This document shows positions 10,361-52,362 of a stretch of 64,000 nt of DNA, piece after piece. The notes beneath the pieces were generated by a model that made no database searches, was not told where the DNA came from, and saw only the letters and a list, made by a program, of their open reading frames with translations. Position 1 is the first letter of the stretch, and each line of letters opens with the position of its first letter. This DNA comes from Bacteroidetes bacterium GWF2_43_63 (lineage in GTDB: Bacteria > Bacteroidota > Bacteroidia > Bacteroidales > DTU049). The translations under genes and the position numbers were made by a program. The stretch spans positions 19,219-83,218 of the forward strand of contig MEOQ01000029.1 of assembly GCA_001769275.1 (NCBI GenBank), read 5' to 3'.

Positions 10361-10449
10361 ACAACCCAAAGTCATTATTTGGAGCGCTTTTGTTGAAATT
10401 TGCACCAATGACCAGGAGATATTTTTTCGCGACTACATGAAAAAAATTT

Positions 10450-10457
10450 TACTTTTG
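10450..10457 (+). promoter_or_regulatory. -7 box TACTTTTG
   Basis: 17 nt upstream of ATG 10475. Confidence 0.5.
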
Positions 10458-10474
10458 CACAAAATCAATGGTTC

Positions 10475-11005: not shown

Positions 11006-11022
11006 GCAATTTTAATATTTCC

Positions 11023-11053
11023 GAAACAGCATCTTCATCGGTGCTGTTTTTTT
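11023..11053 (+). terminator. intrinsic terminator after the 10475..11005 gene
   Basis: AAACAGCATC-TTCATC-GGTGCTGTTT forms a 10-bp stem followed by a T-run extending to 11053. Confidence 0.8.
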
Positions 11054-11180
11054 TGTTTTATCATTATTGTTTCCGATAACGAAATTAAATATAATGTTAA
11101 TATTTTCTTTAGCGGTCTGACTTATCATAACTCTGCGTAAATTGTCGGGTCAAATTCACTTGTACACAAATTCCTTCAAA

Positions 11181-19756: not shown

Positions 19757-21157
19757 TTATTCCATCACCAGCTTCGCAACCCGCATTCCATCTGCCGTTT
19801 TCAGTTGCAGAAAATAAATTCCAGCATCAAGACTACCGATACAAATGTCTCCACTTGTGAATCCCGATTGCATCAACTGTCCGGTTGATGAAAAAATGGA
19901 GTACTGAAGATTGGCTCCCGAAGCGATGTTGAGATAGATGATGTCGTTTGCCGGATTTGGATAAAAAACAATCTCTGAACTGTTTTCGTGTCCCGCTATA
20001 TCGGTGCTGACAGGAATAATGTTGAGTACGATTCCTTCAAGCACGCCCATGGAGTAGGGGAACGACGGATCGGGAACGAGCCACCAGCCATCGGTTGAGC
20101 CACCCCACCCGAAATTGATATGAAAATAGCCATCGGCGCGGTAACCGTCAACGACCACGTTGTGTCCGGTACTCCAGGCAGCGTCGACCACCGCCAGGTG
20201 AGCCGGCCAGCCGTTTTTCATATTGCTGATGAGTGTTTCATACATGACTGAATCGGTGTTTGTGTGCAGTTCACAACTCACAAAACCGAAACGCTGAAAA
20301 GCTGCGTATGCCTGACTTACACTGAAAGTGCCGGAGCCCGCTGATGTGTACACCTGTGTACAAGCTGTGCCGCAGGCGAAAACGATAGCCGCTGCTGTTG
20401 ATGAAGTTGCGTCGAGACCCGATTGAAACAATATGTCCACCGAATCAAGCCAATCGTTTAGTACCGGAAATGTTGGAAATCCAAGCGAGTCAGCATCATC
20501 GTCGATGTAATAATTGCGGCCTGCATAGTTGTGATGATAATCGTCTCCATCATCAAAGCGTGTGTTCTGCGTTGTTTTCAGATAGTTGACGATTTGCCCC
20601 ATGGCAATGGCCGGACATCCGGCATAGCTGCGGCTTCCGGAGACAGGATCCATCGGACACATTTGATTGTATGGCGCACTCTGTGTCCAGTGAGTTTCAA
20701 CCCAACCGCCGGTAGTAGTTGTTCCCGAGTCAGGCCAGTACTGGAGTTTGGGCGATTGTAGGATTTGATTACTCAGCAATTCCCATTGATTGTGAATATC
20801 TGTTTTTTGCGAACTATTCAGCAAAGTTGCTTTTGCAATTCTGTTTGAAATGTCTTTGTCGAGAATTTGTGCAAACGGCATTGATACATCGAACTGAGAA
20901 GTTGATGACCACGCAATCACCGGCGACACATGTTCATTGGCAGCAACAATTATATAATGATGAGGCGCTGCATTGACGACATAATAAAGTGTGTCTCCGG
21001 AAAAATTTGTACGCGGAGTGACTGATTGCACTGAGCATGTAAGATTGTTCTGTTGAAGAAATTCAATAGCAACTAATTGTGCTTTTTGCATCGAAATGTG
21101 TTGAGCAAAGCCGGTAAGCGACCAGACACAAAAGAAAAATAAAAGCCCCCTTTTCAT
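19757..21157 (-). CDS. C10-family (SpeB/streptopain-like) cysteine peptidase with T9SS C-terminal domain
   Basis: ATG 21157 gives the signal peptide MKRGLLFFFCVWSLTGFAQ (the track start 21175 is TTG). Catalytic Cys context YAGCPAIAMGQIVNY, His context GHNVVVDGY, and HINFGWGGSTDGWW. C-terminus VFYPNPANDIIYLNI...GIYFLQLKT. Confidence 0.9.
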   Translation of the reverse strand: MKRGLLFFFCVWSLTGFAQHISMQKAQLVAIEFLQQNNLTCSVQSVTPRTNFSGDTLYYVVNAAPHHYIIVAANEHVSPVIAWSSTSQFDVSMPFAQILDKDISNRIAKATLLNSSQKTDIHNQWELLSNQILQSPKLQYWPDSGTTTTGGWVETHWTQSAPYNQMCPMDPVSGSRSYAGCPAIAMGQIVNYLKTTQNTRFDDGDDYHHNYAGRNYYIDDDADSLGFPTFPVLNDWLDSVDILFQSGLDATSSTAAAIVFACGTACTQVYTSAGSGTFSVSQAYAAFQRFGFVSCELHTNTDSVMYETLISNMKNGWPAHLAVVDAAWSTGHNVVVDGYRADGYFHINFGWGGSTDGWWLVPDPSFPYSMGVLEGIVLNIIPVSTDIAGHENSSEIVFYPNPANDIIYLNIASGANLQYSIFSSTGQLMQSGFTSGDICIGSLDAGIYFLQLKTADGMRVAKLVME

Positions 21158-21418
21158 ATTCTTTTTTGAGTGCAATGTAGAAATATTTCATTTATTGAGG
21201 GACAGTGTGTTAAAACTTTATACGAATTGGGAAAATGAATATATAAAACCAGTGATGAAACCTCACTGACGCGATGGACTTCTTCTATTGAACTTCAAAT
21301 TACTTCGCAAAATCAATCGAAGGCTGCTGTCGCACTTCGATACAACGGAGCAATCAATTATATCATGACTTCTCTTCGTTACTCAGTGTGACAGCAGCCT
21401 TAGCCCCGCTGTTCGTGC

Positions 21419-28961: not shown

Positions 28962-29498
28962 ATGAAGACAGAAACCATCTCAGTATTCCCGGACGAAATT
29001 ATCCTGAATAAAATATTTCTTATCCGGGGCAAAAAAGTGATGATCGACCGTGACCTGGCTGAAATGTACGATGTAGAGACAAAAAGATTAAAGGAGGCGG
29101 TTAAACGAAATATTGAACGCTTTCCAAAGGACTTTATGTTTGAAATGAATAAAAGGGAATTTAAAAATTGGAGGTCGCAATTTGCGACCTCCAATTCCGA
29201 CAACATGGGTCTACGCTATGCTCCGTGCTGTTTTACAGAGCAGGGGGTCACCATGTTGGCTTGTATCCTAAATAGTAAGAGAGCAATCGACGTAAATATC
29301 AGGATTATTCGCGTTTTTACACGCATGCGTGAAATGATAATGACTAACAAAGATATCCTTCTTAAACTTGAGCAGCTCGAAACTCAGGTTTTGCGAAGCA
29401 GCGACGACATACAACTGATCTTTTCTGCATTGAAGCAATTGCTTACACAGCCAGAGGTTCCCCGAAAAAAAATTGGATTCAAACAATCCTGTACGTGA
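28962..29498 (+). CDS. ORF6N-domain DNA-binding protein (KilA-N-related)
   Basis: 178 aa. IRGKKVMIDRDLAEMYDVETKRLKEAVKRNIERFPKDFMFEM...NWRSQFATSN...RYAPCCFTEQGVTMLA...RAIDVNIRIIRVF matches the ORF6N family pattern. Confidence 0.85.
   Translation: MKTETISVFPDEIILNKIFLIRGKKVMIDRDLAEMYDVETKRLKEAVKRNIERFPKDFMFEMNKREFKNWRSQFATSNSDNMGLRYAPCCFTEQGVTMLACILNSKRAIDVNIRIIRVFTRMREMIMTNKDILLKLEQLETQVLRSSDDIQLIFSALKQLLTQPEVPRKKIGFKQSCT
29166..29196. repeat. 31-nt perfect palindrome inside the ORF6N CDS
   Basis: aattggaggtcgcaa-t-ttgcgacctccaatt. Encodes NWRSQFATSN. Confidence 0.9.
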
Positions 29499-31214: not shown

Positions 31215-33044
31215 TCAGATCACAACCAGTACCACTCTCAATTTCTCCAATTCTTTTAATAATGCAAGAATTGTCTGTTTGGTATTTTCGAGTTCAATTT
31301 CAAACTGAGAGATCAGGATATTGAAACGGCCTTTCATATTTTTGAGAAGACCTGAGTAATACTCAATCCCATCAATCATATTCTGAGAGAACGACTGAAT
31401 TGATTTTGGCTGAATCTGATTATTTTGATTCTTTAACGACTCGAATTTTTGCTGGAGTGTGTCGAGATACATGCGCAGTTCATTGATGAACATGTGAGGC
31501 CGGTCTGTCCTTGTAATAACATTGGTGCGACCATAAATATGATCGGTCATTTCCTGCAATGTCATTTCCTTTGAGAAATAGGCCAGATTCGGACCGGGGC
31601 AAACAGAAACGCCATCGCCTTCGAGCTTTGTGTCAAGGTCATTTACAAGCAAAGCCGAAGTCCCCAATCCTACGCAAATACATGCTTTTTCGACAATCTT
31701 CCTGTATTCAACTGCATATTCTTCAGGAGACAGATTCTTATCGTCGAGTTCCTTGATTTTTGCAGCCTGATAAGTATTTGATCCGGCGCAAATATTATTG
31801 CCGGTTTTGTCAACATTGAGAGCCAGATTTTTCTTATGGCATGGACTTCCGGGCTTACCGCTTTTAATGCGTTCCTCTTGTTCAATTTCCTTGCTGTTAC
31901 CTCTCAGATTATTGAAAAGAACACCTAAAGGGGAGACGGTGCTCAGGTAAAGATCTTTTTCTTTAGCTTCCATCATTTTCTGCAAAGTGAAATCATCGAC
32001 ATTGGTCACTTCGGGTACGAGCAGAAAGGGAGTACCCCAGCCGATGGAATCAAGCTGGTAGTATTCGAGTAAAAAATCATGTTCTTCAGATGTACCAACG
32101 CCACCCTGTGCGGTAATACGCATGGGCAGGCTTTCAGGAACCGGAAGATTTTTCGAAGCAAGCGCTTCCTGAAGAATTGAAAAAACAGTTTGATACAGCT
32201 CTCCACGATTATTCTTAAACTCTTCAAGGATGGGCCCCATCAGAAATCCATCAGTTGCAAAAGCATGTCCGCCGCAGTTCAATCCTGATTCCATGCGGTA
32301 TTCCGACACCCAGATTCCTTTTTTTGCCAGAAATTTTCCCTGAATAATTGCCGAGCGATAGTCGCTGACCTTGATGGTTACTTTCTTGCGGATATGTCCT
32401 TTTTCATCGGGAAAAAAGTCACTGAATTGCTGAATATATCCATAAAGCGAAGGATTCATTCCAGCCGAAAATACGATTGATGATTCCAGATCACTGTTGG
32501 CAAATCCGCGCAAAGCTGAATGTGCATCGTTTCGATCTGAGGGCAGCCGTTCTCCGTTTTTGTAATTGATTTTATCAAGCTTGGTCATGATGTTTACATC
32601 AATGCTTCCAAGGGTGAGATTGTCTTTCAACCACTGACGTGTTGCATCCTGCGAAGGATTTGTCTGCCGGAAAGCTTTGAAACGTTTGTCCAGTTCTGAA
32701 TCTGGTGGAAGTAAGCTGAAATATTTTTCAACAGAAACCGGGCTGTTAATCAGCTGATCAAAACGTTTTTCAACAATAAATTTTAAAAGATTGAGATATG
32801 CTGTAGTTCTTTTTGCCCTGCAATCATCATCCGTACGGCTGATTTCTTCGTAGGGCTGACTGTGAACAGCGCATAATTTCTTGCGTAGTCTTTCCATCAA
32901 TCCGTCATCAAGCAGCGAAGCAACTGTGTCAATGCCATAAGGCGCAACACGGGTTGCTGCATCAATGGTGAAACCAATTCCCATGACAGGGATGTGAAAG
33001 GAGTGTGCTTTTATTTCTGGAGTGTGAGTTGGGGAAGTGTTCAT
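31215..33044 (-). CDS. conserved-looking hypothetical protein, 609 aa, possible FMN/TIM-barrel oxidoreductase-like core
   Basis: Long clean ORF with an ATG start. ESGLNCGGHAF and ITAQGGVGTSEE resemble the E.GGH and AAGGI motifs of nitronate monooxygenase/FabK-type TIM barrels. The C-terminal ~200 aa are Cys-rich (CHKKN..NICAG, CICVGLG, VSVCPGP). Function not established. Confidence 0.7.
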   Translation of the reverse strand: MNTSPTHTPEIKAHSFHIPVMGIGFTIDAATRVAPYGIDTVASLLDDGLMERLRKKLCAVHSQPYEEISRTDDDCRAKRTTAYLNLLKFIVEKRFDQLINSPVSVEKYFSLLPPDSELDKRFKAFRQTNPSQDATRQWLKDNLTLGSIDVNIMTKLDKINYKNGERLPSDRNDAHSALRGFANSDLESSIVFSAGMNPSLYGYIQQFSDFFPDEKGHIRKKVTIKVSDYRSAIIQGKFLAKKGIWVSEYRMESGLNCGGHAFATDGFLMGPILEEFKNNRGELYQTVFSILQEALASKNLPVPESLPMRITAQGGVGTSEEHDFLLEYYQLDSIGWGTPFLLVPEVTNVDDFTLQKMMEAKEKDLYLSTVSPLGVLFNNLRGNSKEIEQEERIKSGKPGSPCHKKNLALNVDKTGNNICAGSNTYQAAKIKELDDKNLSPEEYAVEYRKIVEKACICVGLGTSALLVNDLDTKLEGDGVSVCPGPNLAYFSKEMTLQEMTDHIYGRTNVITRTDRPHMFINELRMYLDTLQQKFESLKNQNNQIQPKSIQSFSQNMIDGIEYYSGLLKNMKGRFNILISQFEIELENTKQTILALLKELEKLRVVLVVI

Positions 33045-34263: not shown

Positions 34264-34271
34264 TATCTTTG
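34264..34271 (+). promoter_or_regulatory. -7 box TATCTTTG upstream of the giant SPOR-protein gene
   Basis: 64 nt upstream of TTG 34336. Confidence 0.45.
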
Positions 34272-34335: not shown

Positions 34336-37300
34336 TTGCCCACTGCAAAAAAAATATTTTTCCGTTGTCTGATTTCATGCTTATTCATGATCTCAGTCGT
34401 TGTGGCTGTGGCTCAACCCGTCGGCGATGACCAGCAGGTAAAAACAGAAGCAGATCTGTTGTTTTCTCAGCAGAAGTATGGAGAGGCATTTCCGCTTTAT
34501 TCGCAGTTGCTGAGTATTCATCGCAAAGACGCGTATTATTCATACCGCTTCGGTGTATGTCTGCTGTATACCGACCGCCGCGATCCCGAAGCTCCGATGA
34601 AATACATGGAACCTTCTGTGGGCGAGCTTTCCGGTGAAGATGCGTATATGATTTATTTTCATCTGGGCGTAGCCTATCATCAGGCTTATAGGTTTGGTGA
34701 GGCTTTGCGGGCATTCGAAGCTTTCAAGGGGAAAGTCCCGGCCAAAAGCCCTTATGCGAAAGAGGCGCTGATTCGCAATCAGATGTGCAGCAACGGCATT
34801 TCTCTGCTTCAGAATCTAAGTGATTTGTCGGTGATGAAAAAATACGAGGTTGGTACCGAAAGCTTTTTTCGCTCGTACGATATTTCAAAATTTGGAGGCC
34901 GCATTGGTCCCAAGCCGGATTTTCTGAAAACCAAACCCGACCGCCAATCATCGGATCCGGAGCTTATTTTCATCAGCGATACGCATAATGTTGTTTACTA
35001 CAGCAGCTATGGCAAAAAGAATGCGACCGGGCGCGATATTTACAGAGTGTACAAACTCCCTGACGGGAAATTCTCAACGCCGGAAAAACTCAGCGATGCA
35101 GTTAATACGCCTTACGACGAAAATTATCCCTATCTGTTGCCCGATGGCCGAACACTTTATTTCAGTTCGAAAGGCCACAATTCAATGGGCGGCTATGATA
35201 TTTTCAGAACGGAGTTTGACACGATCAACAAAGAATGGTCTGTACCTGTAAATGTCGATTTTGCCATCAATACACCCTTTGACGACATTCTTTTTATTAC
35301 AGATCCAAGCCAGCGCTACGCCTGGTTTTCGTCGTTGAGAAACAGCAGCGATGGGCGCATTCTGGTATTTCTTGTTCGCATCGACCGCAAAATTCCTGTT
35401 TACGACAACTACAATCCGGAGCTAATTGCAGGAGGCAATATCGATATAAACAGTCCGGAATATCTTGAAACCATTGCGAAGCTGCGCGAAAAGGCCAGTC
35501 TGGATGTAAACAGCAATGAAGAAATCGCAATTGACACTACCAAAATAATTGCTTCGGGTAATAATGCAAAATACAATATTCCTGCAAATCCTACAGGTGA
35601 TCAGATTGTTGATATTGCATTTAACCACGTTGCTTCAGCCGAAGACCAGCTCGATAATTTTCGCAACATGCGCGATGCATCGCTGAAAATTTCGGAACAG
35701 AAAAAAGATCTGGCTGCAGCACTCAATAAGCAAAGTCTGGATTTACACGAAAAAGCAGTAGGCGAAACGGATGCGAAAAAGAGAAAGGATTTAATGGCGC
35801 AGGCCAACGATCTTTCGAAAAAGTCGTTGCTCCTTACCGATGAATCTGATCTGGCGAAACAGATGTATAACCAGTATGTTTCAGCAGCTGATGAGCAGGC
35901 AAAGAACTTTGACCAGATTCAGGATAAGGCCGGGAATGTTCAGAAACTGGCTCTTTCGAGGCAAATTGACAATTCGGTGGTTTTACTTAAAGAACTGATT
36001 GATGGAATCGATACATTCAAAGTCAATCTGGTTCAGCTCGACAAGAAAATTCGCGGCGACAGTGAGTATGTATCAGCGCTCGAAAAAAATATAGCCGACG
36101 ATCTTTCCGAAGCGGCTAATCTTGAAAGCCAGGCCCTAAAGCTGGATAAGGAAGCGAGCCAGTATAAAAATGAAGCTGCACTTGCAACTGATCAGGAAAT
36201 GAAAGACGAATATCTTTCAGAAGCAAATAATCTTTTGAAAGAAGCCGCCGACAATCGCGAAAAGGCGCAGCAACTTAAGAATGACGCCCGCCAACAACAG
36301 ACTGAGCTGGTTGAATTGAAATCAAAATCAGATAAGCGCGATGATCTTGTTGCAGACGCAATAGCTTACGTCGACTCGCTTCAAAAAGCTTCGAATAATA
36401 ACCAGGTAGTTGCCGACAACAACAATCAAATCGCTTCTGATACCATCAATCAAAATCTGGTTAACAACAATAATCAGAATAATGTTGACAACAATCAGAA
36501 TAACAACAACATTATTATTGCAGATACGAACAATCAGGATTCAACGGACAATATTCAGATTATTGCAGACAACAATGCAGTTTTGAACAATAACAATCAG
36601 GATGTGACGAATAACAACCAGATTATTGCTAACAACAATCAGAATGCAAACAACATTGTAGTGGATACAGTCAATGCTCAGAATTCTGATAATCAATCAG
36701 AGAAAGTCGCTATTCAAATATCGCAGGAAATAACGGCAGCAGCGGATTCTGTTGAGAAGCTGATTGAGCATAACAATCGTGAATCGGATGCCATCAGTCT
36801 TGCCTTTGCCAAAAAGAAAAGTGATTATGATTTCAAGTTGTCCGAATGGGTCAAACTCCGCGACCTGCCTAATCTTTCGCAAAGTCAGGTAGTAAAAAAA
36901 TCGGAGCTTGAAGCAGACCTGACTGAGCTGAATCTGCAAATGAATGTACTGAGTGATTATCACGATGAGCTTGATAAACACAATGCTCCGTTGATGCAGG
37001 CGGGCAGCGATTTTGATAAACTCATGCAGGATCTTTCGGAGAAATCAACCGCTGATACAAATGAATTGAAAACGCTGCAGGCCAGAAGTAAAGCCATTAT
37101 TGATGCTATGCAACCTGCGACTGATGATTCGGAACAAATACTTGCAATCAATACAACTGAGATCAAATCGGAAATTAGCAAGATCGAGAAAGACAGAAAT
37201 GCTTTGCAACCGGAGTTGAACGATATCGAGAAAAAGATTCAGATTCTGAACGAAAAGCTTGAAAATACGGATAATCCGAAAAAGCGCACGCAGATTGAAA

Positions 37301-39660
37301 CGGACATTGCAGTCAACAAAGAAAAAGCAGACGCCCTTAAAGAACGGCTGTCAGAGCTGAATGAGATGATTATCGCACTGAATGATTCAATCGGATATCT
37401 CGAAAGACATCATCAGCTGCTGGGTGAAGTAAGGTCTTCCTATTTACAGATTCCTGACAGCGAGCTGAAAACCATGTCGGAAAAGTGGAACAGCACAGTG
37501 CTAAAACCAGATGTGAAAAATGTTGAAATGTTGCCTGATTTCAATGCATACGATCAGCAAAACATTCCGGCTGACACTACTCAAAATATTACAGACAATA
37601 ATCAGAACATAGCCGATAATAATAATCAGGTTGTTCAGGACAACAACAATCAGAATGTCCAGGATAATAACAATCTGACTGAAAAGGTTGCTGTCAGCGA
37701 CGAAGAGCAGGATCTGATACAGTCATCGTTCTATGAATCGGGTGCGCAGACTTTCATGGTTCGCATTGCTTCGCTGAAGAAAAAGCTGGCTACGAATCCA
37801 GCCGATTCGAATCAGATAAAAAATGAAATTGCAGTATTGACAAAGACTATGCAGGCCTACAATAATGAAGCAGATGCATATGAAAACAATGCGGAGAACA
37901 ATTTGAAACTTGTCGGAAAGCAGCTCCCGGAGAAGATTCCGGAGTATTCCGAAAAATCGATGATCGACTTTCATGAGCAGCTGTCCGATGTAGAAATGCA
38001 AAAAGCCGACAGTGTGCAACGACTCGCTGATGCTAGCACCGACGCGGTTGTCAAAAACAAACTTCAGAAACAGGCCGATGATTTTAAGGAATCCGCAAAG
38101 CGCCACTATCTGATGGCTTCGGATATTTACGGGATTTGGAATAACAGCGAATTCGAAAGCAACAATATAGCATTCACTGAAAGCAATGTCAATCGCACCC
38201 AGGACACTGACAATGCACGCATGCTGATGATTGAGGCACGACAACTCCGAAGCGAAGCTTATGGTGAAAGTGATTTTGCGAAACAACGCGAAATTTTGGC
38301 GCAGGCACAGAAGAAAGAGGCGGCTGCCATTGATTCGCAGGAAAAATCGATGGAGCAGAACAGCATTGAAAATCCTGAAAAAATTGTCAGCAAGACCATT
38401 GCCGAAATTGAAAGTACAACAGGAAACGACATTGCTGAGATCACAAAACAATATCCTTCAAATACGGCACTGCTGGCTGCTTATGAGAAGTCGCAACAAA
38501 CCAGCGACAGCATTATCGAGGACAACAATCAGATTACGGCAAACAGCAATATTACCAATCAAAACAACAATCAGGTTGTAGATAACAATGTGACCAACGT
38601 AAACACGCAGGTGTCTGAGAACAACAATCAGATTACAGACAATGCTGCAAATAACAATCAGGCAGAGAATATTGTTGTTGCGAATAATCAGGTGACCAAT
38701 GAGCGTGTTGCTGACAATAAATTATATTACCGCATTCAGATTTCGGCATCGAGAGTTGAAATTGATACAACAAAATATTTTCAGGGAATGAATGTGGTTG
38801 TTGACAAAACCGGTGGATGGAATCAATACATGACCGGATATTTCACTTCCTACAACCCAGCATTGACCGAACTCAGACGCGTGCAACCAATGGGATATGC
38901 CGATGCTTTCATTGTTGCCTATTACGACGGCAAGCGCGTTCCGGTGTACGAAGCGCGACGAATGGAGCAGGGCGGAACGCCGGCAAATGTTGCGCAGACC
39001 GCATCGACAGGCAATTTCAGCATGAACGATGTGGAAGGACTTGTGTATTCCGTTCAGGTGGGCGTGTATGCAAAAACCCGCAACAGTACATCGCTTTTCG
39101 GCATCAGTCCTTTGATTGAGGAGCGGATGAACAACGGCTATTACCGTTATTATGCCGGCACATTCAACAACATGAACGACGCTGTAACCGCAAGAAATAA
39201 AATCCGCACCAGCGGTGTCCCCGATGCTTTTGTGGTCATACTCTACAAAGGGAAGAAAATCACGCAGGCCGAAGCTGCGCAATTGCAGACTGACGGAACG
39301 ACTTTCGGCGGCGGATTGAAACAGTCCGGAGCCGGCACCCAGCCGCAGAATACACAGGTGACACCGACAAATATTACACCTGCATCCAAGCCCGTTTTCA
39401 AAGTCCAGATTGGCGCCTACAGCAAAGATGTACCGGTGAATGTGGTGAACGAACTGATTGCCTTAGCCGGGCAGGGCATCGAAACCACCAAGAATGATGC
39501 GGGTTTGACCGTGTACACCGTAGGCAATTTCTCCAAATACACCGAAGCCGAAGCAAAGAAAAACGAACTCAACGCCAAAGGCCTGAGCGATGCATTTGTT
39601 GTTGCATATATTGATGGCAAGCGGGTTTCGGTGAGTGAGGCTAGAAAAATTGGTGATTAG
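34336..39660 (+). CDS. giant envelope protein: signal/anchor, TPR, PD40 (TolB-like) repeats, ~1,000-aa coiled-coil with N/Q-rich tracts, three C-terminal SPOR domains
   Basis: 1774 aa. The TTG start gives MPTAKKIFFRCLISCLFMISVVVAVAQ (ATG 34387 is an alternative).
- PD40-like: NTPYDENYPYLLPDGRTLYFSS...GGYDIF.
- Long heptad-like, charged middle region.
- SPOR-like units: YYRIQISASRV...DAFIVAYYDGKRV, VYSVQVGVYAK...DAFVVILYKGKKI and VFKVQIGAYSK...DAFVVAYIDGKRV. Confidence 0.85.
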   Translation: MPTAKKIFFRCLISCLFMISVVVAVAQPVGDDQQVKTEADLLFSQQKYGEAFPLYSQLLSIHRKDAYYSYRFGVCLLYTDRRDPEAPMKYMEPSVGELSGEDAYMIYFHLGVAYHQAYRFGEALRAFEAFKGKVPAKSPYAKEALIRNQMCSNGISLLQNLSDLSVMKKYEVGTESFFRSYDISKFGGRIGPKPDFLKTKPDRQSSDPELIFISDTHNVVYYSSYGKKNATGRDIYRVYKLPDGKFSTPEKLSDAVNTPYDENYPYLLPDGRTLYFSSKGHNSMGGYDIFRTEFDTINKEWSVPVNVDFAINTPFDDILFITDPSQRYAWFSSLRNSSDGRILVFLVRIDRKIPVYDNYNPELIAGGNIDINSPEYLETIAKLREKASLDVNSNEEIAIDTTKIIASGNNAKYNIPANPTGDQIVDIAFNHVASAEDQLDNFRNMRDASLKISEQKKDLAAALNKQSLDLHEKAVGETDAKKRKDLMAQANDLSKKSLLLTDESDLAKQMYNQYVSAADEQAKNFDQIQDKAGNVQKLALSRQIDNSVVLLKELIDGIDTFKVNLVQLDKKIRGDSEYVSALEKNIADDLSEAANLESQALKLDKEASQYKNEAALATDQEMKDEYLSEANNLLKEAADNREKAQQLKNDARQQQTELVELKSKSDKRDDLVADAIAYVDSLQKASNNNQVVADNNNQIASDTINQNLVNNNNQNNVDNNQNNNNIIIADTNNQDSTDNIQIIADNNAVLNNNNQDVTNNNQIIANNNQNANNIVVDTVNAQNSDNQSEKVAIQISQEITAAADSVEKLIEHNNRESDAISLAFAKKKSDYDFKLSEWVKLRDLPNLSQSQVVKKSELEADLTELNLQMNVLSDYHDELDKHNAPLMQAGSDFDKLMQDLSEKSTADTNELKTLQARSKAIIDAMQPATDDSEQILAINTTEIKSEISKIEKDRNALQPELNDIEKKIQILNEKLENTDNPKKRTQIETDIAVNKEKADALKERLSELNEMIIALNDSIGYLERHHQLLGEVRSSYLQIPDSELKTMSEKWNSTVLKPDVKNVEMLPDFNAYDQQNIPADTTQNITDNNQNIADNNNQVVQDNNNQNVQDNNNLTEKVAVSDEEQDLIQSSFYESGAQTFMVRIASLKKKLATNPADSNQIKNEIAVLTKTMQAYNNEADAYENNAENNLKLVGKQLPEKIPEYSEKSMIDFHEQLSDVEMQKADSVQRLADASTDAVVKNKLQKQADDFKESAKRHYLMASDIYGIWNNSEFESNNIAFTESNVNRTQDTDNARMLMIEARQLRSEAYGESDFAKQREILAQAQKKEAAAIDSQEKSMEQNSIENPEKIVSKTIAEIESTTGNDIAEITKQYPSNTALLAAYEKSQQTSDSIIEDNNQITANSNITNQNNNQVVDNNVTNVNTQVSENNNQITDNAANNNQAENIVVANNQVTNERVADNKLYYRIQISASRVEIDTTKYFQGMNVVVDKTGGWNQYMTGYFTSYNPALTELRRVQPMGYADAFIVAYYDGKRVPVYEARRMEQGGTPANVAQTASTGNFSMNDVEGLVYSVQVGVYAKTRNSTSLFGISPLIEERMNNGYYRYYAGTFNNMNDAVTARNKIRTSGVPDAFVVILYKGKKITQAEAAQLQTDGTTFGGGLKQSGAGTQPQNTQVTPTNITPASKPVFKVQIGAYSKDVPVNVVNELIALAGQGIETTKNDAGLTVYTVGNFSKYTEAEAKKNELNAKGLSDAFVVAYIDGKRVSVSEARKIGD
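36393..36696 (+). repeat. low-complexity N/Q-rich tract 1 (imperfect AAC AAC AAT CAG-type repeats) within the SPOR protein gene
   Basis: Translation reads NNNQVVADNNNQIASD...NNNQNNVDNNQNNNNIII...NNNQDVTNNNQIIANNNQNANN. Confidence 0.9.
37581..37676 (+). repeat. low-complexity N/Q-rich tract 2
   Basis: Translation reads QNITDNNQNIADNNNQVVQDNNNQNVQDNNN. Confidence 0.9.
38521..38700 (+). repeat. low-complexity N/Q-rich tract 3
   Basis: Translation reads DNNQITANSNITNQNNNQVVDNNVTNVNTQVSENNNQITDNAANNNQAENIVVANNQVTN. Confidence 0.9.
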
Positions 39661-39712: not shown

Positions 39713-40618
39713 TTATTCATCCCCAAAGTAATCACTATCGATTCTTTTTATCTCAAAAATATTCACAGTCGAAACCGCTAAATTATGATCAATCATAAGT
39801 TCAGCTAAACTTTCTCCGTCAATTAAAACAATCTTTGTTTCATTTCTTGGCTGATATTCTTTTGCTTCATTTGTAAATCTCGAAGTTGTAATGAAAACAC
39901 CTTTTTTTGCACCTTGCCCTGCTAATGCACCCACAAATTTTTGTATTTCAGGTCTTCCAACAACATTTTCCCAGCGTTTTGCTTGTATATAAATTACATC
40001 AAGTCCAAGTTTATCTTCTTTTATTATGCCATCAATTCCTTCATCACCTGAACGACCTATCGAACGACCTGCGTCTTTTATCGAACCGCCGTAACCCATT
40101 TTTACTAATAATTCCACAACTAAAGATTCGAAAAATGCAGGGCTGCTACTTTTAATTTTCAAAAGCAGTTCTTGTGCAAGATTTTTTCTGATACTCAAAT
40201 AACTATTTTCTAATACTTCCTCAGGTGTCGAATCTGTTGGTATATTTTCATTGTCGGTTATCGAATCATCTTCTTTTATTCGGCCAGTTCTTTCCTGATA
40301 AGCTGGGATGGTCTTTAATACCCTCAAATTAATTTCTGTAGGATTCGATCCCAAAAACAGTTTCCCAGCTTCAGTGATTCTAAAAGAACTTCTCTTAGTA
40401 TTTTCAATCAATCCAGCCATTTTAATATGAGACTTTGCCCAGGCAACTCGATTCGAAAAGGTCTTAGCTGCGCCGCTTGGTAAAAATTCATTTATTTCAG
40501 CATCTGTCAGATTAAAATGCTCTGCTAATTTCTGATTAGTCTCATTTGTAGTGTGTTCATCTCCGTCAGATAGAATCTGAATGAAAGGAAGCATAATTGT
40601 CTGAAAATCGGGTATCAT
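39713..40618 (-). CDS. mrr: Mrr-family (type IV, modification-dependent) restriction endonuclease
   Basis: 301 aa. N-terminal Mrr_N-like winged helix (MIPDFQTIMLPFIQIL...RVAWAKSHIKMAGLIE) and C-terminal Mrr_cat core (FESLVVELLVKMGYGG...GDEGIDGII...DVIYIQAKRW). Confidence 0.88.
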   Translation of the reverse strand: MIPDFQTIMLPFIQILSDGDEHTTNETNQKLAEHFNLTDAEINEFLPSGAAKTFSNRVAWAKSHIKMAGLIENTKRSSFRITEAGKLFLGSNPTEINLRVLKTIPAYQERTGRIKEDDSITDNENIPTDSTPEEVLENSYLSIRKNLAQELLLKIKSSSPAFFESLVVELLVKMGYGGSIKDAGRSIGRSGDEGIDGIIKEDKLGLDVIYIQAKRWENVVGRPEIQKFVGALAGQGAKKGVFITTSRFTNEAKEYQPRNETKIVLIDGESLAELMIDHNLAVSTVNIFEIKRIDSDYFGDE

Positions 40619-41067: not shown

Positions 41068-42003
41068 CTAGTAGTATTCAATAACTCTTTCAATAATATA
41101 TATTTCTTCATCATCAATTATTTCAATTTGCTCAATCCAATTTTCTTTTGAGTCATATTTATATTGATAAGACCATGTTGCATCAATGTTTCCTGAATCA
41201 TTAGTCTCAACAACCTCTTTCTCATTTCCTTTTTCAAAAGTGTACGATATTTTCCCCTCAATCTCTCCTTCAGTAAAATTTTCCCAATATTCATGAGTTC
41301 GAACATAATTCTCATAAACATAAGTTGCTTTTTCTAATATTCCCTCATCACTGTCATGCCATGTTTCAGTAATTAAGTTTCCGTAAGAATCATATAAATA
41401 ATCTAACCATTCTTTGTAGTCATCAAATATTGATTCCTCTTTTATTAATCTGTCATTCTCATCATATGAAAATCGCGTTATTCCAACTTTCTGCCCTTTA
41501 ATGTTAAACTCCTGTTTTTCAACAAGTCGATTGTTCTCATCGTAAAGGAACTTGTATATTGATTCTCTTTCTTCTCCCGGAGCATTTGCATTCGAGGAAC
41601 TTATTTGACTCGGTTGACGATTAGTTTCTTTCATTGAGATTAATCTACCAGACGAGTCGTATGTATAGGTTCTTGTATGATACAACATTTCTGATTTCAC
41701 AAGTTTCCCATTAGCATAATCGAACTGTTCCATTCGGGATATTTTTGAATCTGAGTCAAAGTAGATTTTATTCATCTTGTTACCATTGGAATCAAATTCA
41801 GTTTTGGAATCCTGCTGCCAATTTGATTTCCAACCTCTCCGGATTTTAGCATATCCATCAGTTGTTGATTTTCCAATATAGGATATCTCGGTAATTGATT
41901 TAACCCTATCTTTTAAATTTAAATCTTTTAAAGATAAATCCTGAGCGAATGTCAAGCTTGGCATCAATATTAAAAAAATAATTATTTGTCTGCTAGTTTT
42001 CAT
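41068..42003 (-). CDS. secreted protein with YD/Rhs-like repeats
   Basis: 311 aa. Signal peptide MKTSRQIIIFLILMPSLTFAQ. Recurring Y.YD..G(R/N)L(I/V) units: YTYDSSGRLISM, FLYDENNRLVEK, FSYDENDRLIKE, YLYDSYGNLITE. Very AT-rich. Confidence 0.65.
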   Translation of the reverse strand: MKTSRQIIIFLILMPSLTFAQDLSLKDLNLKDRVKSITEISYIGKSTTDGYAKIRRGWKSNWQQDSKTEFDSNGNKMNKIYFDSDSKISRMEQFDYANGKLVKSEMLYHTRTYTYDSSGRLISMKETNRQPSQISSSNANAPGEERESIYKFLYDENNRLVEKQEFNIKGQKVGITRFSYDENDRLIKEESIFDDYKEWLDYLYDSYGNLITETWHDSDEGILEKATYVYENYVRTHEYWENFTEGEIEGKISYTFEKGNEKEVVETNDSGNIDATWSYQYKYDSKENWIEQIEIIDDEEIYIIERVIEYY

Positions 42004-50274: not shown

Positions 50275-52362
50275 CTATTCCTTGAAAAATTTCAATGAAT
50301 GAATTCCCGCTTTGTTGCTGATGGAGAGCAAATACATGCCATTGCTCAGTTGATGAACCGGCACAACGATGTAACCGCCCTGAGCTTGCTGAATACTTGA
50401 ATAGACGCGGCGTCCATGCAAATCGAAAACAATCACTTCGCAATCAGATTCAGCACCAGCGATGGTAATATAATCTTTTGCAGGATTTGGAAACAGCATC
50501 AAATCTGGTTTACTGAAATCAGCGACTGAAACAGGCGAGGTGCGGTAATTACATTTGAATCCCTGCGCGTGCGTGGTAGCCGTTGTTTTGAGCGTGATGG
50601 TCATGGTGCCGTTGGCGGAATACAAAACCGGAGGCAGTTGGTTGCCTTTGAAATCACCAAGTATGACATTTGTTGTATGATCGGTTACTCTGACGTAATC
50701 GCTGGAATCCACATCAAATTCTGAAAATGAAAGAAGTATCGGCTCGCCTGATGCCGGCTCAATTTTCCAGCGACAGAAATTATTTCCGTGGTACATGTAA
50801 GGACCAGAGCCATCTTCGATGGTGTCGGATTCAGCAGTAATTGTTGACAACGCCGTGCAGAATCCAAAAGGAGAAACAATGCTATAGGAAATCAGAAAGC
50901 CGGCTGCAGTGTCAGCGGCATTGCTTGTGAATGTAAGAAATACGCGATCGCCCGTGGACTGAATTATTGAAGGAATCGAAGAACCGCTGTAGGAGCCAAG
51001 TACAGGCGCCGAAGTGTTTTCTCCGTCGTAGATTGTCAGCACATCGTTGACGCTCTCAGTTTCAAAGCGGTCGAACGTAAGTTTAATGCTGGTTGCGCTG
51101 TCGTCCGGAGCAATCAGCCAGGAGCAATCCGTATTGTTGCGATAGCCGAACAAAGGTCCGGAGCCGTCATCGATGGTACCGTCGCGTGAGCTGACCGTGT
51201 CGGTTCCGTTGCAATAATATGGGTATGGGCCATCGGGATACATGTTGACAACTAGTTCATGCATCAAAGTAAAATCAGCTCCACTGGGTGTCAGATTGCT
51301 GGTGTAGAAATAGCCGTCGGCAGAGCCGCCCCAGCCCCAGTTGAAGTGAAAAAAACAGGTATCCTGATAGCCATCCACCACGAAAGCGTGTCCGCTCATA
51401 TAGATGGTGTCGCCCCAGCCCGCATAATACATGGGCAGTCCGCGTTCAAGGTGACTGATAATAACGCTATCCCAGTTGAGCGTAACCGAATCACGGAAAA
51501 TGTATCGGGTTGAATCGACATATTTGAAAAAAGTTTTTAAAACATGAGCTGCCTTGTGGTTGTTCATTCCGCTTCCGTCGGGGCCATAGTGCATATCGAC
51601 GCCAACTCCGATATTATAGATAAGTTCTGCTGTCTCCGGATTGGTGCGGGTGAGTGCGGTAGCCATTTCGTTAAAATCATAGGTCGCAGCAGCATAATCA
51701 ACGGTGAGCGTTCCATACACCGTGTCTTCGCTTGTGTAGGACCCAACGCCGGATTGCGGCCAGCGAAAATAATTCACCAATTGTCCAAGTGCTGTGGCCA
51801 CACAACCAGTATAACATTTATCATCGGGTCCATCGGGATCGGCCGGACAGAATTCATTGTAGTAAGTTACCTGATACCATTTTGTTGTCAGAAGAGGTGC
51901 AACCTGTCCTTTCGGCGCATTAATGCTTCCAATCATATAATCGGCCCAAAGCTGTTGATTTTCCGGATTCTGATAATTTTTCAAAACAGATGTTTCGTAA
52001 ACTTGTTTTGAATAATTTTCGAGCAATGCATTCAATGCCGGATTTGAATGATTTTGCGGGCAGTGGTTTTCGGACGAATAAGCCACAACGGGAACAATAT
52101 TTTTATTGGCGGAAACAATTATAAATCCCTCCGGAAAAAGATTGAAAACATAGTAGGTTGTTTCCCCATTTAATACGCCGGTATAAGATTCTGCAAAATA
52201 AGGTGCGAAACTGTTTCCAAGCCGTTGTGTTGCAAAATTGGCCGCCACAGTGCTTGCTTCTTCCGGAGTGACGCTCTGCGCTTTTGCAAGATTGCCGTAA
52301 AACAAATCAAGGGCAAGGAACAACGCCAGGCCCGCAACAAATCTCATTGATTTGAATTTCAT
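50275..52362 (-). CDS. C10-family cysteine peptidase with two CUB-like domains and T9SS C-terminal domain
   Basis: 695 aa.
- Catalytic contexts: YTGCVATALGQLVNYF, GHAFVVDGY, HFNWGWGGSADGYF.
- Two CUB-like modules: GTIDDGSGPLFGYRNNTDCSWLI... and DTIEDGSGPYMYHGNNFCRWKI....
- C-terminus: LFPNPAKDYITI...GMYLLSISN. Confidence 0.9.
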   Translation of the reverse strand: MKFKSMRFVAGLALFLALDLFYGNLAKAQSVTPEEASTVAANFATQRLGNSFAPYFAESYTGVLNGETTYYVFNLFPEGFIIVSANKNIVPVVAYSSENHCPQNHSNPALNALLENYSKQVYETSVLKNYQNPENQQLWADYMIGSINAPKGQVAPLLTTKWYQVTYYNEFCPADPDGPDDKCYTGCVATALGQLVNYFRWPQSGVGSYTSEDTVYGTLTVDYAAATYDFNEMATALTRTNPETAELIYNIGVGVDMHYGPDGSGMNNHKAAHVLKTFFKYVDSTRYIFRDSVTLNWDSVIISHLERGLPMYYAGWGDTIYMSGHAFVVDGYQDTCFFHFNWGWGGSADGYFYTSNLTPSGADFTLMHELVVNMYPDGPYPYYCNGTDTVSSRDGTIDDGSGPLFGYRNNTDCSWLIAPDDSATSIKLTFDRFETESVNDVLTIYDGENTSAPVLGSYSGSSIPSIIQSTGDRVFLTFTSNAADTAAGFLISYSIVSPFGFCTALSTITAESDTIEDGSGPYMYHGNNFCRWKIEPASGEPILLSFSEFDVDSSDYVRVTDHTTNVILGDFKGNQLPPVLYSANGTMTITLKTTATTHAQGFKCNYRTSPVSVADFSKPDLMLFPNPAKDYITIAGAESDCEVIVFDLHGRRVYSSIQQAQGGYIVVPVHQLSNGMYLLSISNKAGIHSLKFFKE

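What the first reader, a model, noticed from the sequence alone, without database searches (positions are those of the whole stretch)
34336..39660. 1,774-aa envelope protein combining TPR/PD40 N-terminus, ~1,000-aa coiled coil with slippage-prone N/Q tracts, and triple SPOR C-terminus
Seen in the sequence:
- An N-terminal signal/anchor.
- TPR-like helices and PD40-type motifs (DENYPYLLPDGRTLYFSS).
- A long charged, heptad-like middle region interrupted by three asparagine/glutamine tracts. These are encoded by imperfect AACAACAATCAG repeats (36393-36696, 37581-37676, 38521-38700).
- Three C-terminal units with the SPOR-like pattern (Y/F).(I/V)Q(I/V)(S/G)A(S/Y)... DAF(I/V)V.Y.GK(R/K)(V/I).

Established knowledge: SPOR domains bind denuded septal peptidoglycan. 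TPR plus PD40 N-termini usually precede OmpA-like domains in Bacteroidetes envelope proteins.

Inference: a septum- or peptidoglycan-tethered extended filament or ruler-like protein. Its length may vary between strains through repeat slippage. I do not recognise this combination as a characterised protein.
Basis: partly seen in the sequence, partly recalled or inferred. Interest (0 to 1): 0.6.

Follow-up and report, generated by a model that had tools for sequence, protein, structure and literature searches.

The report
Giant periplasmic wall-binding protein of Bacteroidota
This is a real 1,774-residue secreted protein of an uncultured Bacteroidota bacterium, built from a protein-binding head, three helical rods joined by floppy spacers, and three cell-wall-binding SPOR domains. 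It belongs to a widespread family that nobody has studied and that probably ties a partner to the cell wall at division sites.

Summary
ORF 34336-39660 (+) encodes a 1,774-aa protein with these parts:
- a Sec/signal-peptidase-I signal peptide, if the TTG start is used;
- a 3-repeat TPR domain;
- a short PD40 beta domain related to the propeller of PorE;
- a long helical middle;
- three Asn/Gln-rich tracts;
- three C-terminal SPOR domains.

One correction is needed. The middle is not a single ~1,000-aa coiled coil. It is three ~230-280-aa modules of long, back-folding helices, separated by three disordered low-complexity spacers.

In other family members the first module is visibly repeated two or three times, in register. 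The spacers keep their positions across the family but change composition (N/Q, N/T/S, T/S/A, E/T/V).

The family is restricted to Bacteroidota. All named members are metagenome-assembled genomes, annotated "hypothetical" or "PD40 domain-containing". The helical module occurs almost only in these giants: 267 of 1.84 billion representative proteins.

The same head usually ends in an OmpA-type wall-binding domain. Here that domain is replaced by SPOR x3.

Best reading: a soluble periplasmic, flexible, multivalent tether that anchors a head-bound partner to amidase-processed ("denuded") peptidoglycan, most likely at the septum. A rigid ruler or filament is not supported. The function is inferred, not shown. 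This is a new variant of known kinds, of moderate interest.

The parts
34336..39660 (+). Whole gene: 1,774 codons plus stop, TTG start
   Evidence: Identical to public protein P0001 except for the start choice.
34264..34271 (+). TATCTTTG, a match to the Bacteroidota -7 promoter element TAnnTTTG, 65 nt upstream of the start. Possible promoter; inference only.
   Evidence: Sequence read. The consensus is from my own knowledge of Bacteroides/Flavobacterium promoters. The sigma-70 scan was at chance level.
34336..34413 (+). Signal peptide (aa 1-26), predicted signal-peptidase-I cleavage AVA|Q; no lipobox
   Evidence: In one search, 102 of 121 assessable family members have a hydrophobic region followed by a small-x-small|Q site, and none has a lipobox. 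Q at +1 fits the Bacteroidetes Q-rule (PMC5837995).
34429..34815 (+). TPR domain, about three repeats (aa 32-160)
   Evidence: AlphaFold helices at pLDDT ~90. Foldseek matches CHIP/PP5 TPR domains, target TM 0.7-0.8. The family profile hits CTPR3 at E 4e-5.
34828..35385 (+). PD40-type beta domain (aa 165-350), about three blades; the most conserved part of the protein
   Evidence: Pfam PD40, 37.6 bits. NCBIfam PorE profile positions 286-409 match aa 213-340, E 7.8e-20. Eleven strands predicted. Invariant SKGHNSMGGYDIF and NTPFDD motifs.
35596..36390 (+). Helical module A (aa 421-685): four long helices with 3-residue turns; the prototype of the family-specific ~225-aa repeat
   Evidence: pLDDT above 90. 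The profile finds 2-3 in-register copies in other members, E down to 1e-51, with no hits on reversed decoys. No Pfam family. Only 267 hits among 1.84e9 representatives.
36391..36687 (+). Low-complexity spacer 1 (aa 686-784): degenerate octapeptide repeats DNNNQN(V/I)A
   Evidence: pLDDT ~25. Same position but different composition in homologues.
36688..37494 (+). Helical module B (aa 785-1053), the fastest-evolving module
   Evidence: Long helices 785-842, 849-902, 908-977 and 981-1037, pLDDT 85-95. hhalign against module A is in register, 33% probability.
37552..37689 (+). Low-complexity spacer 2 (aa 1073-1118), 24-nt periodic repeats
37699..38490 (+). Helical module C (aa 1122-1385)
   Evidence: Helices at pLDDT 80-92. 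hhalign against module A is in register, 41% probability. A partial module-A profile hit at E 5e-6.
38500..38718 (+). Low-complexity spacer 3 (aa 1389-1461)
38722..38967 (+). SPOR domain 1 (aa 1463-1544), divergent subtype (YYRIQISAS)
   Evidence: Pfam 14.5 bits, below threshold but full length. BLASTP to units 2 and 3 at E 1e-13. Predicted SPOR topology. The beta1 Gln is invariant.
39040..39291 (+). SPOR domain 2 (aa 1569-1652)
   Evidence: Pfam SPOR 27.5 bits against cut-off 21; fold; invariant Gln.
39394..39654 (+). SPOR domain 3 (aa 1687-1773), canonical FKVQIGAYS motif; ends at the C-terminus
   Evidence: Pfam SPOR 25.7 bits; fold. Across the family the last SPOR ends a median of 5 aa from the C-terminus.

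Best explanation
The gene encodes a soluble periplasmic 'beads-on-a-string' tether.

1. Export. After Sec export and signal-peptidase-I cleavage, which exposes an N-terminal Gln, the protein stays in the periplasm. It has no lipid anchor and no type IX secretion tail.
2. Wall-binding end. The three tandem SPOR domains bind peptidoglycan glycan strands whose peptide stems have been removed by amidases. That form is enriched at the division septum. Three domains in series give multivalent, high-avidity anchoring.
3. Partner-binding end. The highly conserved N-terminal TPR + PD40 head is homologous to the head of PorE-like TPR-PD40-OmpA envelope proteins. It binds a still unknown envelope partner.
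4. Connector. Three rod-like modules of back-folding helices alternate with three disordered low-complexity spacers. Together they form a long, flexible connector of variable length.

Net effect: a partner or activity carried by the head is concentrated on, or cross-linked to, amidase-processed wall, most plausibly during late cell division and outer-membrane constriction.

Shown here: domain identities, segmentation, family conservation and export signals. Inferred: glycan binding, septal location, the existence of a head partner, and the division role.
For: Export:
- Signal peptide with an AVA|Q site. 102 of 121 assessable family members have the same kind of site and none has a lipobox. This fits the Q-rule (PMC5837995).
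- No Por_Secre_tail domain, although four other proteins in the same window have one.

SPOR end:
- Two units pass the Pfam cut-off and the third is homologous to them.
- A profile of the units hits the CwlC SPOR structure 1X60. AlphaFold predicts three SPOR-type folds.
- The beta1 glutamine that contacts the exposed lactyl carboxylate (Q270 of RlpA; PMC6895207) is invariant in all three units.
- 141 of 179 long family members have exactly three SPOR units, placed at the extreme C-terminus.
- A Bacteroidota SPOR domain (CHU2221) binds denuded glycans with Kd ~1 uM and goes to the septum in E. coli (bioRxiv 10.1101/2022.07.01.498525).

Head:
- PD40 and TPR are confirmed.
- There is a local match to the PorE propeller, E 7.8e-20. 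Some members also carry the CarboxypepD_reg domain, as PorE does.
- The same head is usually fused to OmpA-type wall-binding domains and sometimes to SPOR in short proteins. So 'head plus wall anchor' is the conserved logic.

Ends versus middle: identity to the nearest relative is 88% in the head and 88% in the SPOR region, 64-74% in the helical modules and 29-59% in the spacers. The ends look functional and the middle looks like a connector.

Connector: segmentation into three helical modules and three disordered spacers; spacer positions conserved while composition is free.
Against: - No experiment or expression data exist for any member.
- Gene neighbourhood gives no functional link. In the window the neighbours are ispH and an Mrr nuclease. 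In other lineages they are plsY, clpS, an M48 peptidase and prmA. None is a division or cell-wall gene.
- The head's partner is unknown.
- SPOR domains also occur in proteins with roles other than division.
- The helix back-folding comes from single-chain AlphaFold models with shallow alignments (18 and 10 sequences). Long intermolecular coiled coils are often mis-modelled this way.
- The PD40 domain (~185 aa, about three blades) is too short for a closed five-bladed propeller like PorE's, so its fold and oligomeric state are uncertain.
- Foldseek found no significant match for the beta domain or the helical modules.
Confidence: 0.55

Rival explanations
1. A PorE-like component of the type IX secretion or gliding machinery. 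The TPR-PD40 head docks onto the secretion or gliding apparatus, and the SPOR domains replace OmpA_C to fix that apparatus, or its track, to the wall.
For: - Local homology of the PD40 region to the PorE family.
- The overall logic is PorE-like: head plus wall anchor (PMC7192894).
- The organism has type IX secretion cargo, including a 2,559-aa SprB-repeat protein in the same window.
- Many family members come from Flavobacteriales lineages such as Fluviicola and Crocinitomicaceae.
Against: - The score against the PorE model is 70.7 bits against a cut-off of 600, and it covers only ~125 aa.
- There is no lipobox, whereas PorE is a lipoprotein.
- There is no OmpA_C domain, which is essential for PorE function (PMC12773672).
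- No type IX secretion or gliding genes sit next to the gene in the window or in 80 related loci.
- SPOR targets denuded glycans, which are a localised and transient substrate, not a general anchor.
Confidence: 0.15
2. A periplasmic cytoskeleton-like filament or molecular ruler. The helical region forms a long intermolecular coiled coil that polymerises or sets a distance, with the SPOR domains fixing it to the wall.
For: - About 800 residues are predicted helical.
- Nine of 18 helices have a significant heptad a/d pattern.
- Single-chain AlphaFold cannot see intermolecular coiled coils.
Against: - The helices are interrupted at conserved short turns, and the hairpin packing is predicted with pLDDT 85-95.
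- Three spacers of 46-100 residues predicted disordered break the rod.
- The head-to-SPOR length varies two-fold across the family (866-1,723 aa) and changes between near-identical relatives.
- Foldseek gives only weak, non-significant resemblance to three-helix bundles or BAR-type bundles.
Confidence: 0.12
3. A general periplasmic spacer or wall-coating protein with no specific partner. The disordered N/Q-, T/S- or E-rich tracts and helical modules act as a hydrated cushion or brush, held on the wall by SPOR domains and buffering the periplasmic gap or crowding.
For: - Low-complexity tracts are kept in position but are free in composition.
- The protein is large, and neighbourhood gives no partner.
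Against: The head is the most conserved part of the protein, with dozens of invariant residues across 18 diverse members. That argues for a specific interaction or activity rather than bulk filling.
Confidence: 0.08

Closest known systems
PorE (PG1058) of Porphyromonas gingivalis and the many PorE-like 'TPR-PD40(-CRD)-OmpA family' proteins of Bacteroidota
   Same: - An N-terminal TPR domain followed by a PD40/WD40-type beta domain. Some family members also have the CarboxypepD_reg domain.
- A C-terminal peptidoglycan-binding module.
- Periplasmic location.
- Sequence homology in the PD40 region, E 7.8e-20.
   Different: - The wall anchor is three SPOR domains, which bind denuded glycan, instead of one OmpA_C domain, which binds the peptide stem.
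- A helical and disordered region of ~1,000 aa is inserted between head and anchor.
- There is no lipid anchor.
- The beta domain is ~185 aa against 269 aa for PorE's five blades.
- The protein is far below the PorE family cut-off (70.7 against 600 bits).
SPOR-domain division proteins: FtsN, DamX, DedD, RlpA (E. coli, Pseudomonas), CwlC (B. subtilis), CHU2221 (Cytophaga hutchinsonii)
   Same: - A C-terminal SPOR domain with the conserved beta1 glutamine.
- A long low-complexity or disordered linker ahead of the SPOR domain, as is typical of SPOR proteins (PMC6895207).
- Expected targeting to amidase-processed septal wall.
   Different: - Those proteins have one SPOR domain and are held by a transmembrane helix or a lipid anchor. 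This one is soluble, has three orthologously conserved SPOR units, and carries a TPR-PD40 head and three helical modules.
- CHU2221 is a 249-aa protein, not a member of this family.
Tol-Pal accessory set: CpoB/YbgF (coiled coil + TPR), TolB (PD40 propeller), Pal (OmpA-like). Comparison from my own knowledge.
   Same: The same three kinds of parts in the periplasm (TPR, PD40 beta domain, wall-binding domain, plus helical segments), acting at the constriction site to couple the outer membrane with the wall.
   Different: - Here the parts are fused in one polypeptide.
- No homology beyond the generic domain families was demonstrated.
- No link to TolQRA was tested.
- This is an analogy only.
Short TPR-PD40-SPOR proteins of Bacteroidota (e.g. 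L008 5208-7898, 897 aa; P0258, P0259, P0263, P0284)
   Same: The same head and the same SPOR-type anchor. In L008 one lies directly upstream of the giant.
   Different: They lack the three helical modules and spacers. They are also uncharacterised.

Membership tests
SPOR domain (Pfam PF05036) | Sequence match to the SPOR profile above the curated cut-off | tested here: met
   - Whole protein 32.8 bits against 21.
- Unit 2 scores 27.5 and unit 3 scores 25.7. Unit 1 scores 14.5, below threshold, but is homologous to units 2 and 3 at E 1e-13.
- 9 of 12 family units match.
- The profile hits the CwlC SPOR structure 1X60, E 1.3e-3.
SPOR domain (Pfam PF05036) | RNP-like beta-alpha-beta-beta-alpha-beta fold of ~75 aa | tested here: met
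   AlphaFold secondary structure for aa 1463-1544, 1569-1652 and 1687-1773, pLDDT ~70-90. The Foldseek search of the whole model returned no SPOR structure, so the fold rests on topology, not on a structural superposition.
SPOR domain (Pfam PF05036) | Conserved beta1 glutamine that contacts the lactyl carboxylate exposed when the stem peptide is removed | tested here: met
   Gln is invariant in all three units across the alignments. Its role is taken from PMC6895207.
SPOR domain (Pfam PF05036) | Binding to denuded glycans and septal localisation | not testable with these tools
   Needs sacculus pull-down or ITC, and GFP-fusion microscopy.
PorE family (NCBIfam NF052230, type IX secretion) | Full-length match above the curated cut-off (600 bits) | tested here: not met
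   70.7 bits, covering only profile positions 286-409 of 648.
PorE family (NCBIfam NF052230, type IX secretion) | C-terminal OmpA_C-like peptidoglycan-binding domain | tested here: not met
   No PF00691 hit. The C-terminus is SPOR x3.
PorE family (NCBIfam NF052230, type IX secretion) | Outer-membrane lipoprotein (lipobox cysteine) | tested here: not met
   The signal-peptidase-I site is AVA|Q. No lipobox among 121 assessable family members.
PD40 / TolB-like beta-propeller repeat (PF07676) | PD40 repeat match above the cut-off | tested here: met
   29.1 and 37.6 bits against 20.9.
PD40 / TolB-like beta-propeller repeat (PF07676) | A closed multi-bladed propeller | tested here: inconclusive
TPR domain | Helix-turn-helix repeats matching TPR profiles or structures | tested here: met
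   - Single-sequence Pfam hits are below cut-off.
- The family profile hits CTPR3 (E 4e-5) and PP5 TPR.
- Foldseek target TM is 0.65-0.8 to CHIP/PP5/SPAG1 TPR domains.
Canonical long coiled-coil / filament-forming protein | Uninterrupted heptad repeat over hundreds of residues | tested here: not met
   - The heptad signal is significant only within individual helices, 9 of 18. There is no coherent 3.5-residue periodicity over modules A or C.
- The helices are broken by conserved turns and by three disordered spacers.
Type IX secretion cargo | C-terminal sorting domain (Por_Secre_tail) | tested here: not met
   Absent here, but found in four other proteins of the window.

The most novel reading that the evidence does not exclude
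The family is a Bacteroidota-specific, single-polypeptide device for late cell division. It would do for these bacteria what the separate CpoB/TolB/Pal and SPOR proteins do in Proteobacteria.

- Its triple SPOR end reads out amidase-processed septal wall.
- Its TPR-PD40 head captures an outer-membrane or wall-synthesis partner.
- The alternating rods and disordered, composition-free spacers act as an elastic or condensate-forming leash that keeps the outer membrane in step with the constricting wall.

A less likely variant: the protein is the wall-fixed part of the still unidentified track of the gliding machinery.
Probability: 0.15. Interest if true: 0.7.

Novelty: new variant of a known kind. 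Interest (0 to 1): 0.45.

Why it matters
Cell division and the coupling of outer membrane to wall are poorly understood in Bacteroidota. These bacteria lack clear counterparts of several proteobacterial division proteins.

This family is large and conserved across at least several orders. At least 599 species-level genomes carry the head motifs, and about 150-270 sequence clusters carry the family-specific helical module.

It joins two well-understood end modules through an unusual connector: a denuded-glycan reader and a PorE/TolB-type interaction head. That gives a concrete, testable candidate for a septum-targeted envelope tether.

It also defines a new ~225-aa helical repeat module with no Pfam family. 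And it shows that the common TPR-PD40 head of Bacteroidota can be attached to either of two different wall anchors, OmpA or SPOR.

If it turns out to be only a structural wall-associated protein of uncultured lineages, the impact is modest.

Tried and rejected
- PDB profile search with the C-terminal 1,089 aa gave only generic coiled-coil noise. A SPOR-only profile was needed to find 1X60.
- Internal repeat in the query itself. BLASTP between modules A, B and C gave only weak hits of the kind composition produces. hhalign gave in-register alignments at only 33-41% probability. So homology of B and C to A is likely but not proven for this protein, although it is clear in other members.
- Synteny. 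Conserved neighbours exist only in a Flavobacteriales-like subset and are housekeeping genes (plsY, clpS, M48 peptidase, prmA) plus an unknown ~1,490-aa protein. None of these is in the window. This was rejected as functional evidence.
- The sigma-70 promoter and terminator scan was at chance level.
- Literature searches for SPOR + PD40 + coiled coil in Bacteroidetes or Flavobacterium found no description of the family.
- Search for a cultured host. The 80 best genome loci and 10 looked-up clusters are all metagenome-assembled genomes or unnamed. Presence in model species (F. johnsoniae, C. hutchinsonii, Bacteroides, P. gingivalis) could not be settled.
- CHU2221 was considered as a possible family member and rejected, because it is a 249-aa protein.
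- Whole-region Fourier analysis at a 3.5-residue period was uninformative, because the helices change register. It was replaced by a per-helix test.
Full report

Yes. The window holds an uninterrupted ORF at 34336..39660 on the + strand: 1,774 codons with a TTG start. The protein is identical to a public entry from 'Bacteroidetes bacterium GWF2_43_63', a metagenome-assembled genome. That entry is annotated as a hypothetical protein and starts 17 codons later, at an ATG (P0001, 1,757 aa).

The TTG start is the better choice. It yields MPTAKKIFFRCLISCLFMISVVVAVA|QPVGDD, which has a basic n-region, a hydrophobic core and a small-x-small cleavage site followed by Gln. The ATG start leaves only half of the hydrophobic core.

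Homologues have complete signal peptides at this position. Among 121 family members whose N-terminus could be assessed, 102 have a hydrophobic region followed by a small-x-small|Q site, and none has a lipobox. Gln at +1 is the Bacteroidetes 'Q-rule' for signal-peptidase-I substrates (PMC5837995).

**2. Domain checks**

- PD40. Pfam finds PD40 at 29.1 bits, or 37.6 bits on the isolated segment, against a cut-off of 20.9, at aa 254-291.
- SPOR. Pfam finds SPOR at 32.8 bits against a cut-off of 21.
- TPR. The hits are below Pfam cut-offs for the single sequence. A profile of 18 family members hits designed and natural 3-TPR domains in the PDB (CTPR3, E 4e-5; PP5). The AlphaFold model of aa 1-690 (mean pLDDT 83) superposes on CHIP, PP5 and SPAG1 TPR domains with target TM-scores of 0.65-0.8.
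- PorE relationship. NCBIfam gives one informative hit: aa 213-340 match positions 286-409 of the PorE family model (E 7.8e-20). The score is only 70.7 bits against a cut-off of 600. The beta domain is therefore homologous to part of the PorE propeller, but the protein is not a PorE.

Scanned separately, the three C-terminal units behave as follows.

| Unit | Pfam SPOR bits (cut-off 21) | Note |
|---|---|---|
| 1 | 14.5 | below threshold, but aligned across the full model |
| 2 | 27.5 | passes |
| 3 | 25.7 | passes |

Further support for the SPOR assignment:
- The units match one another by BLASTP at E 1e-11 to 1e-13.
- A profile of 12 units from the family hits the founding SPOR structure, B. 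subtilis CwlC (1X60), at E 1.3e-3.
- AlphaFold predicts three beta-alpha-beta-beta-alpha-beta domains at aa 1463-1544, 1569-1652 and 1687-1773.
- The beta1 glutamine is invariant in all three units. In RlpA this residue (Q270) contacts the lactyl carboxylate that is exposed only when the stem peptide has been removed (PMC6895207).

**3. The Asn/Gln tracts**

The N+Q content reaches 46-48% in the densest 50-aa windows of tracts 1 and 3 (aa ~686-790 and ~1396-1453) and about 30% around the short tract 2 (aa ~1078-1113).

At the DNA level, AACAACAATCAG with up to two mismatches occurs 29 times in the window. Shuffles give 10.7 +/- 3.7, and none of 100 shuffles reaches 29. Sixteen of the matches fall inside the three tracts, and in tract 2 they are spaced by 24 nt. 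Tandem Repeats Finder reports only two weak 24-bp arrays.

The peptide unit is a degenerate octapeptide, DNNNQN(V/I)A.

**4. What the 'coiled coil' really is**

Two AlphaFold models cover the whole protein. The region between head and SPOR domains is not one rod.

| Segment | Residues | Prediction |
|---|---|---|
| Module A | 421-685 | helices 421-476, 480-540, 544-616, 620-689; pLDDT above 90 |
| Spacer 1 | 686-785 | unstructured, pLDDT ~25 |
| Module B | 785-1053 | long helices, pLDDT 85-95 |
| Spacer 2 | 1073-1118 | unstructured, pLDDT ~25 |
| Module C | 1122-1385 | long helices, pLDDT 80-92 |
| Spacer 3 | 1389-1461 | unstructured, pLDDT ~25 |

The helices are 45-70 residues long and are joined by turns of three to six residues. 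They therefore have to fold back on each other into antiparallel bundles roughly 8-10 nm long.

A per-helix test finds a significant a/d heptad pattern in 9 of 18 helices. No coherent 3.5-residue periodicity runs across modules A or C. This is coiled-coil-like packing inside bundles, not a continuous coiled coil.

Caveat: single-chain models with shallow alignments can fold true intermolecular coiled coils back on themselves.

**5. A family-specific repeat module**

A profile built only from module-A orthologues finds second and third full-length, in-register copies (model positions ~1-233) in many other members. E-values go down to 1e-51, and reversed-sequence decoys give no hit at all. The copies align almost without gaps over 232 columns.

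- Among 159 complete members, 37 show two or three full-length copies. The others show one copy plus partial hits.
- In the clade of the query, modules B and C have diverged. hhalign aligns them to A in register, but with only 33% and 41% probability.
- Module A has no Pfam family.
- Searched against 1.84 billion representative proteins, the module profile finds only 267 proteins at E <= 1e-3, and 156 at E <= 1e-10. Nearly all are 1,500-3,000 aa long, with the module beginning at residue ~430-590, directly after the head.

The module is thus a signature of this family.

**6. The spacers are conserved in position, not in composition**

Across homologues, low-complexity tracts sit at the same three places. 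They are N/Q/D-rich in close relatives, N/T/S-rich, T/S/A-rich or E/T/V-rich in others, and short or absent in a few.

Their length changes between very close relatives. L001 and P0004 have almost identical flanks yet differ by a 26-aa block in tract 1, and both differ from the query. This supports length variability. Slippage is a reasonable cause, but it is not demonstrated, and assembly artefacts in repeats remain possible.

**7. The family**

The first protein search returned 1,507 relatives. The best 120 are almost all 1,500-2,450 aa (one partial of 1,051 aa), most carrying PD40 and/or SPOR annotations, and are named 'hypothetical' or 'PD40 domain-containing'.

A scan of one genome per GTDB species found at least 599 loci with the head motifs SKGHN[ST]MG and N[TS]P[FY]DD[IF][LM]F.
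- The 80 best are all Bacteroidota assemblies, apart from one probably mis-binned 'Dependentiae'.
- They are labelled Bacteroidales, Flavobacteriales, Crocinitomicaceae, Fluviicola, Vicingaceae, Lentimicrobiaceae, Prolixibacteraceae and Marinilabiliales, among others.
- The complete genes there encode 1,494-2,441 aa.

Of 179 long members, 141 have three SPOR units, 22 have two and 8 have four. The last unit ends a median of five residues from the C-terminus.

Orthologous SPOR units are much more alike across species (for example 85% for unit 3) than the three units are within one protein (26-32% in the unit alignment). The triple arrangement is therefore old and maintained.

Identity to the nearest relative, by region:

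| Region | Identity to nearest relative |
|---|---|
| Head | 88% |
| SPOR region | 88% |
| Helical modules | 64-74% |
| Spacers | 29-59% |

This is the pattern expected of two functional ends joined by a connector. The connector length (head end to first SPOR) spans 866-1,723 aa, which argues against a ruler.

**8. Context**

In the window the gene stands alone. ispH (LytB) lies upstream on the opposite strand, and an Mrr-type restriction enzyme converges downstream.

In a Flavobacteriales-like subset of loci the gene is flanked by plsY, clpS, an M48 peptidase, prmA and an unknown ~1,490-aa secreted protein. None of these is in the window, and none points to a function.

The window does show that the organism uses type IX secretion. 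Four proteins carry the Por_Secre_tail sorting domain, including a 2,559-aa SprB-repeat protein. The protein studied here has no such tail, so it should remain in the periplasm.

**9. The head belongs to a wider superfamily with interchangeable wall anchors**

A search with a short paralogue (897 aa, TPR-PD40-SPOR) that lies just upstream of the giant in locus L008 returned 2,748 relatives.
- Most are 650-870-aa 'OmpA family proteins': TPR-PD40, often with CarboxypepD_reg, ending in PF00691.
- A few end in SPOR.
- Some end in SdrD-B-like domains.

The OmpA form is the PorE architecture: TPR 25-149, five-bladed propeller 167-435, CRD 441-527, OmpA_C 534-668. PorE is a lipoprotein thought to link the type IX machinery to the wall (PMC7192894), and its OmpA_C domain is essential (PMC12773672). 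Some giants also keep the CRD.

The conserved logic is 'TPR-PD40 head plus peptidoglycan anchor'. The family studied here is the variant with a denuded-glycan anchor in triplicate and a very long segmented connector.

**10. Most likely mechanism (inference)**

1. The protein is exported by Sec and cleaved by signal peptidase I. It is soluble in the periplasm.
2. The three SPOR domains bind stretches of glycan lacking stem peptides, which amidases produce at the septum.
3. Single SPOR domains bind with Kd ~1-10 uM. A Bacteroidota SPOR domain (CHU2221 of Cytophaga hutchinsonii, an unrelated 249-aa protein) binds at ~1 uM and localises to the septum in E. coli (bioRxiv 10.1101/2022.07.01.498525). 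Three in tandem should give strong avidity.
4. The invariant head binds a partner, as TPR and propeller domains generally do.
5. The rods and spacers give reach and flexibility. Fully stretched, the connector would far exceed the width of the periplasm, so the molecule must lie largely along the wall.

I put this reading at about 0.55.

Rivals:
- A PorE-like role in type IX secretion or gliding: 0.15.
- A filament or ruler: 0.12.
- A partner-less wall-bound cushion: 0.08.

**11. Novelty and verdict**

All the end domains are known kinds, and the 'head plus wall anchor' logic is known from PorE. Three things are new:
- the combination of TPR-PD40 head, three rod-spacer units and three SPOR domains;
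- the family-specific helical repeat module;
- the recognition that this is a large, conserved and wholly uncharacterised Bacteroidota family.

I rate it a new variant of a known kind, with moderate interest (0.45). It is a good candidate for a septal envelope tether in a phylum whose division machinery is little known. Every functional statement rests on inference from domains.

Noticed in passing
window 11142-18821 (+): A 2,559-aa ORF with 16 SprB repeats, a proprotein-convertase P-domain and a type IX secretion C-terminal sorting domain. It is a giant SprB-like surface adhesin, which implies type IX secretion and possibly gliding in this organism.
   Followed up: partly
window 50275-52362 (-), 19757-21175 (-), 1806-3227 (-): Three more proteins with the Por_Secre_tail sorting domain. 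Two are C10 (streptopain-like) cysteine peptidases with an N-terminal Spi inhibitor pro-domain, and one of those also carries CUB domains.
   Followed up: no
window 28962-29498 (+) and 39713-40618 (-): An ORF6N/Rha-type phage regulatory protein and a full-length Mrr restriction endonuclease lie near the gene. RHS-repeat fragments sit at 41068-42003. These are hints of mobile or defence DNA around the gene, and may explain why the synteny seen in other lineages is absent here.
   Followed up: no
window 31215-33044 (-) and 5883-7322 (-): ORFs of 609 aa and 479 aa with no Pfam match at all.
   Followed up: no
L008 5208-7901 (+), next to the giant at 9869-14857: In a Lentimicrobiaceae genome, an 897-aa 'mini' version (TPR-PD40-SPOR, without the helical modules) sits directly upstream of the giant. 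L064 has a 574-aa TPR paralogue in the same position. This suggests tandem duplication and divergence of the head.
   Followed up: partly
L023 1434-5912 (+) and equivalents in 27 loci: A conserved ~1,490-aa secreted protein with no Pfam family lies two genes upstream of the giant, on the same strand, in many Flavobacteriales-like genomes. It is absent from this window.
   Followed up: partly
window 37723-38451 (-) and 38722-39282 (-): Long antisense ORFs (242 and 186 aa) inside the gene. They are most likely shadow ORFs produced by the biased codon use of the helical and SPOR regions. They were not examined.
   Followed up: no
window 34336 versus public annotation P0001: The deposited annotation starts the protein at Met18 and so removes half of the signal peptide. 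The upstream TTG start restores it.
   Followed up: yes
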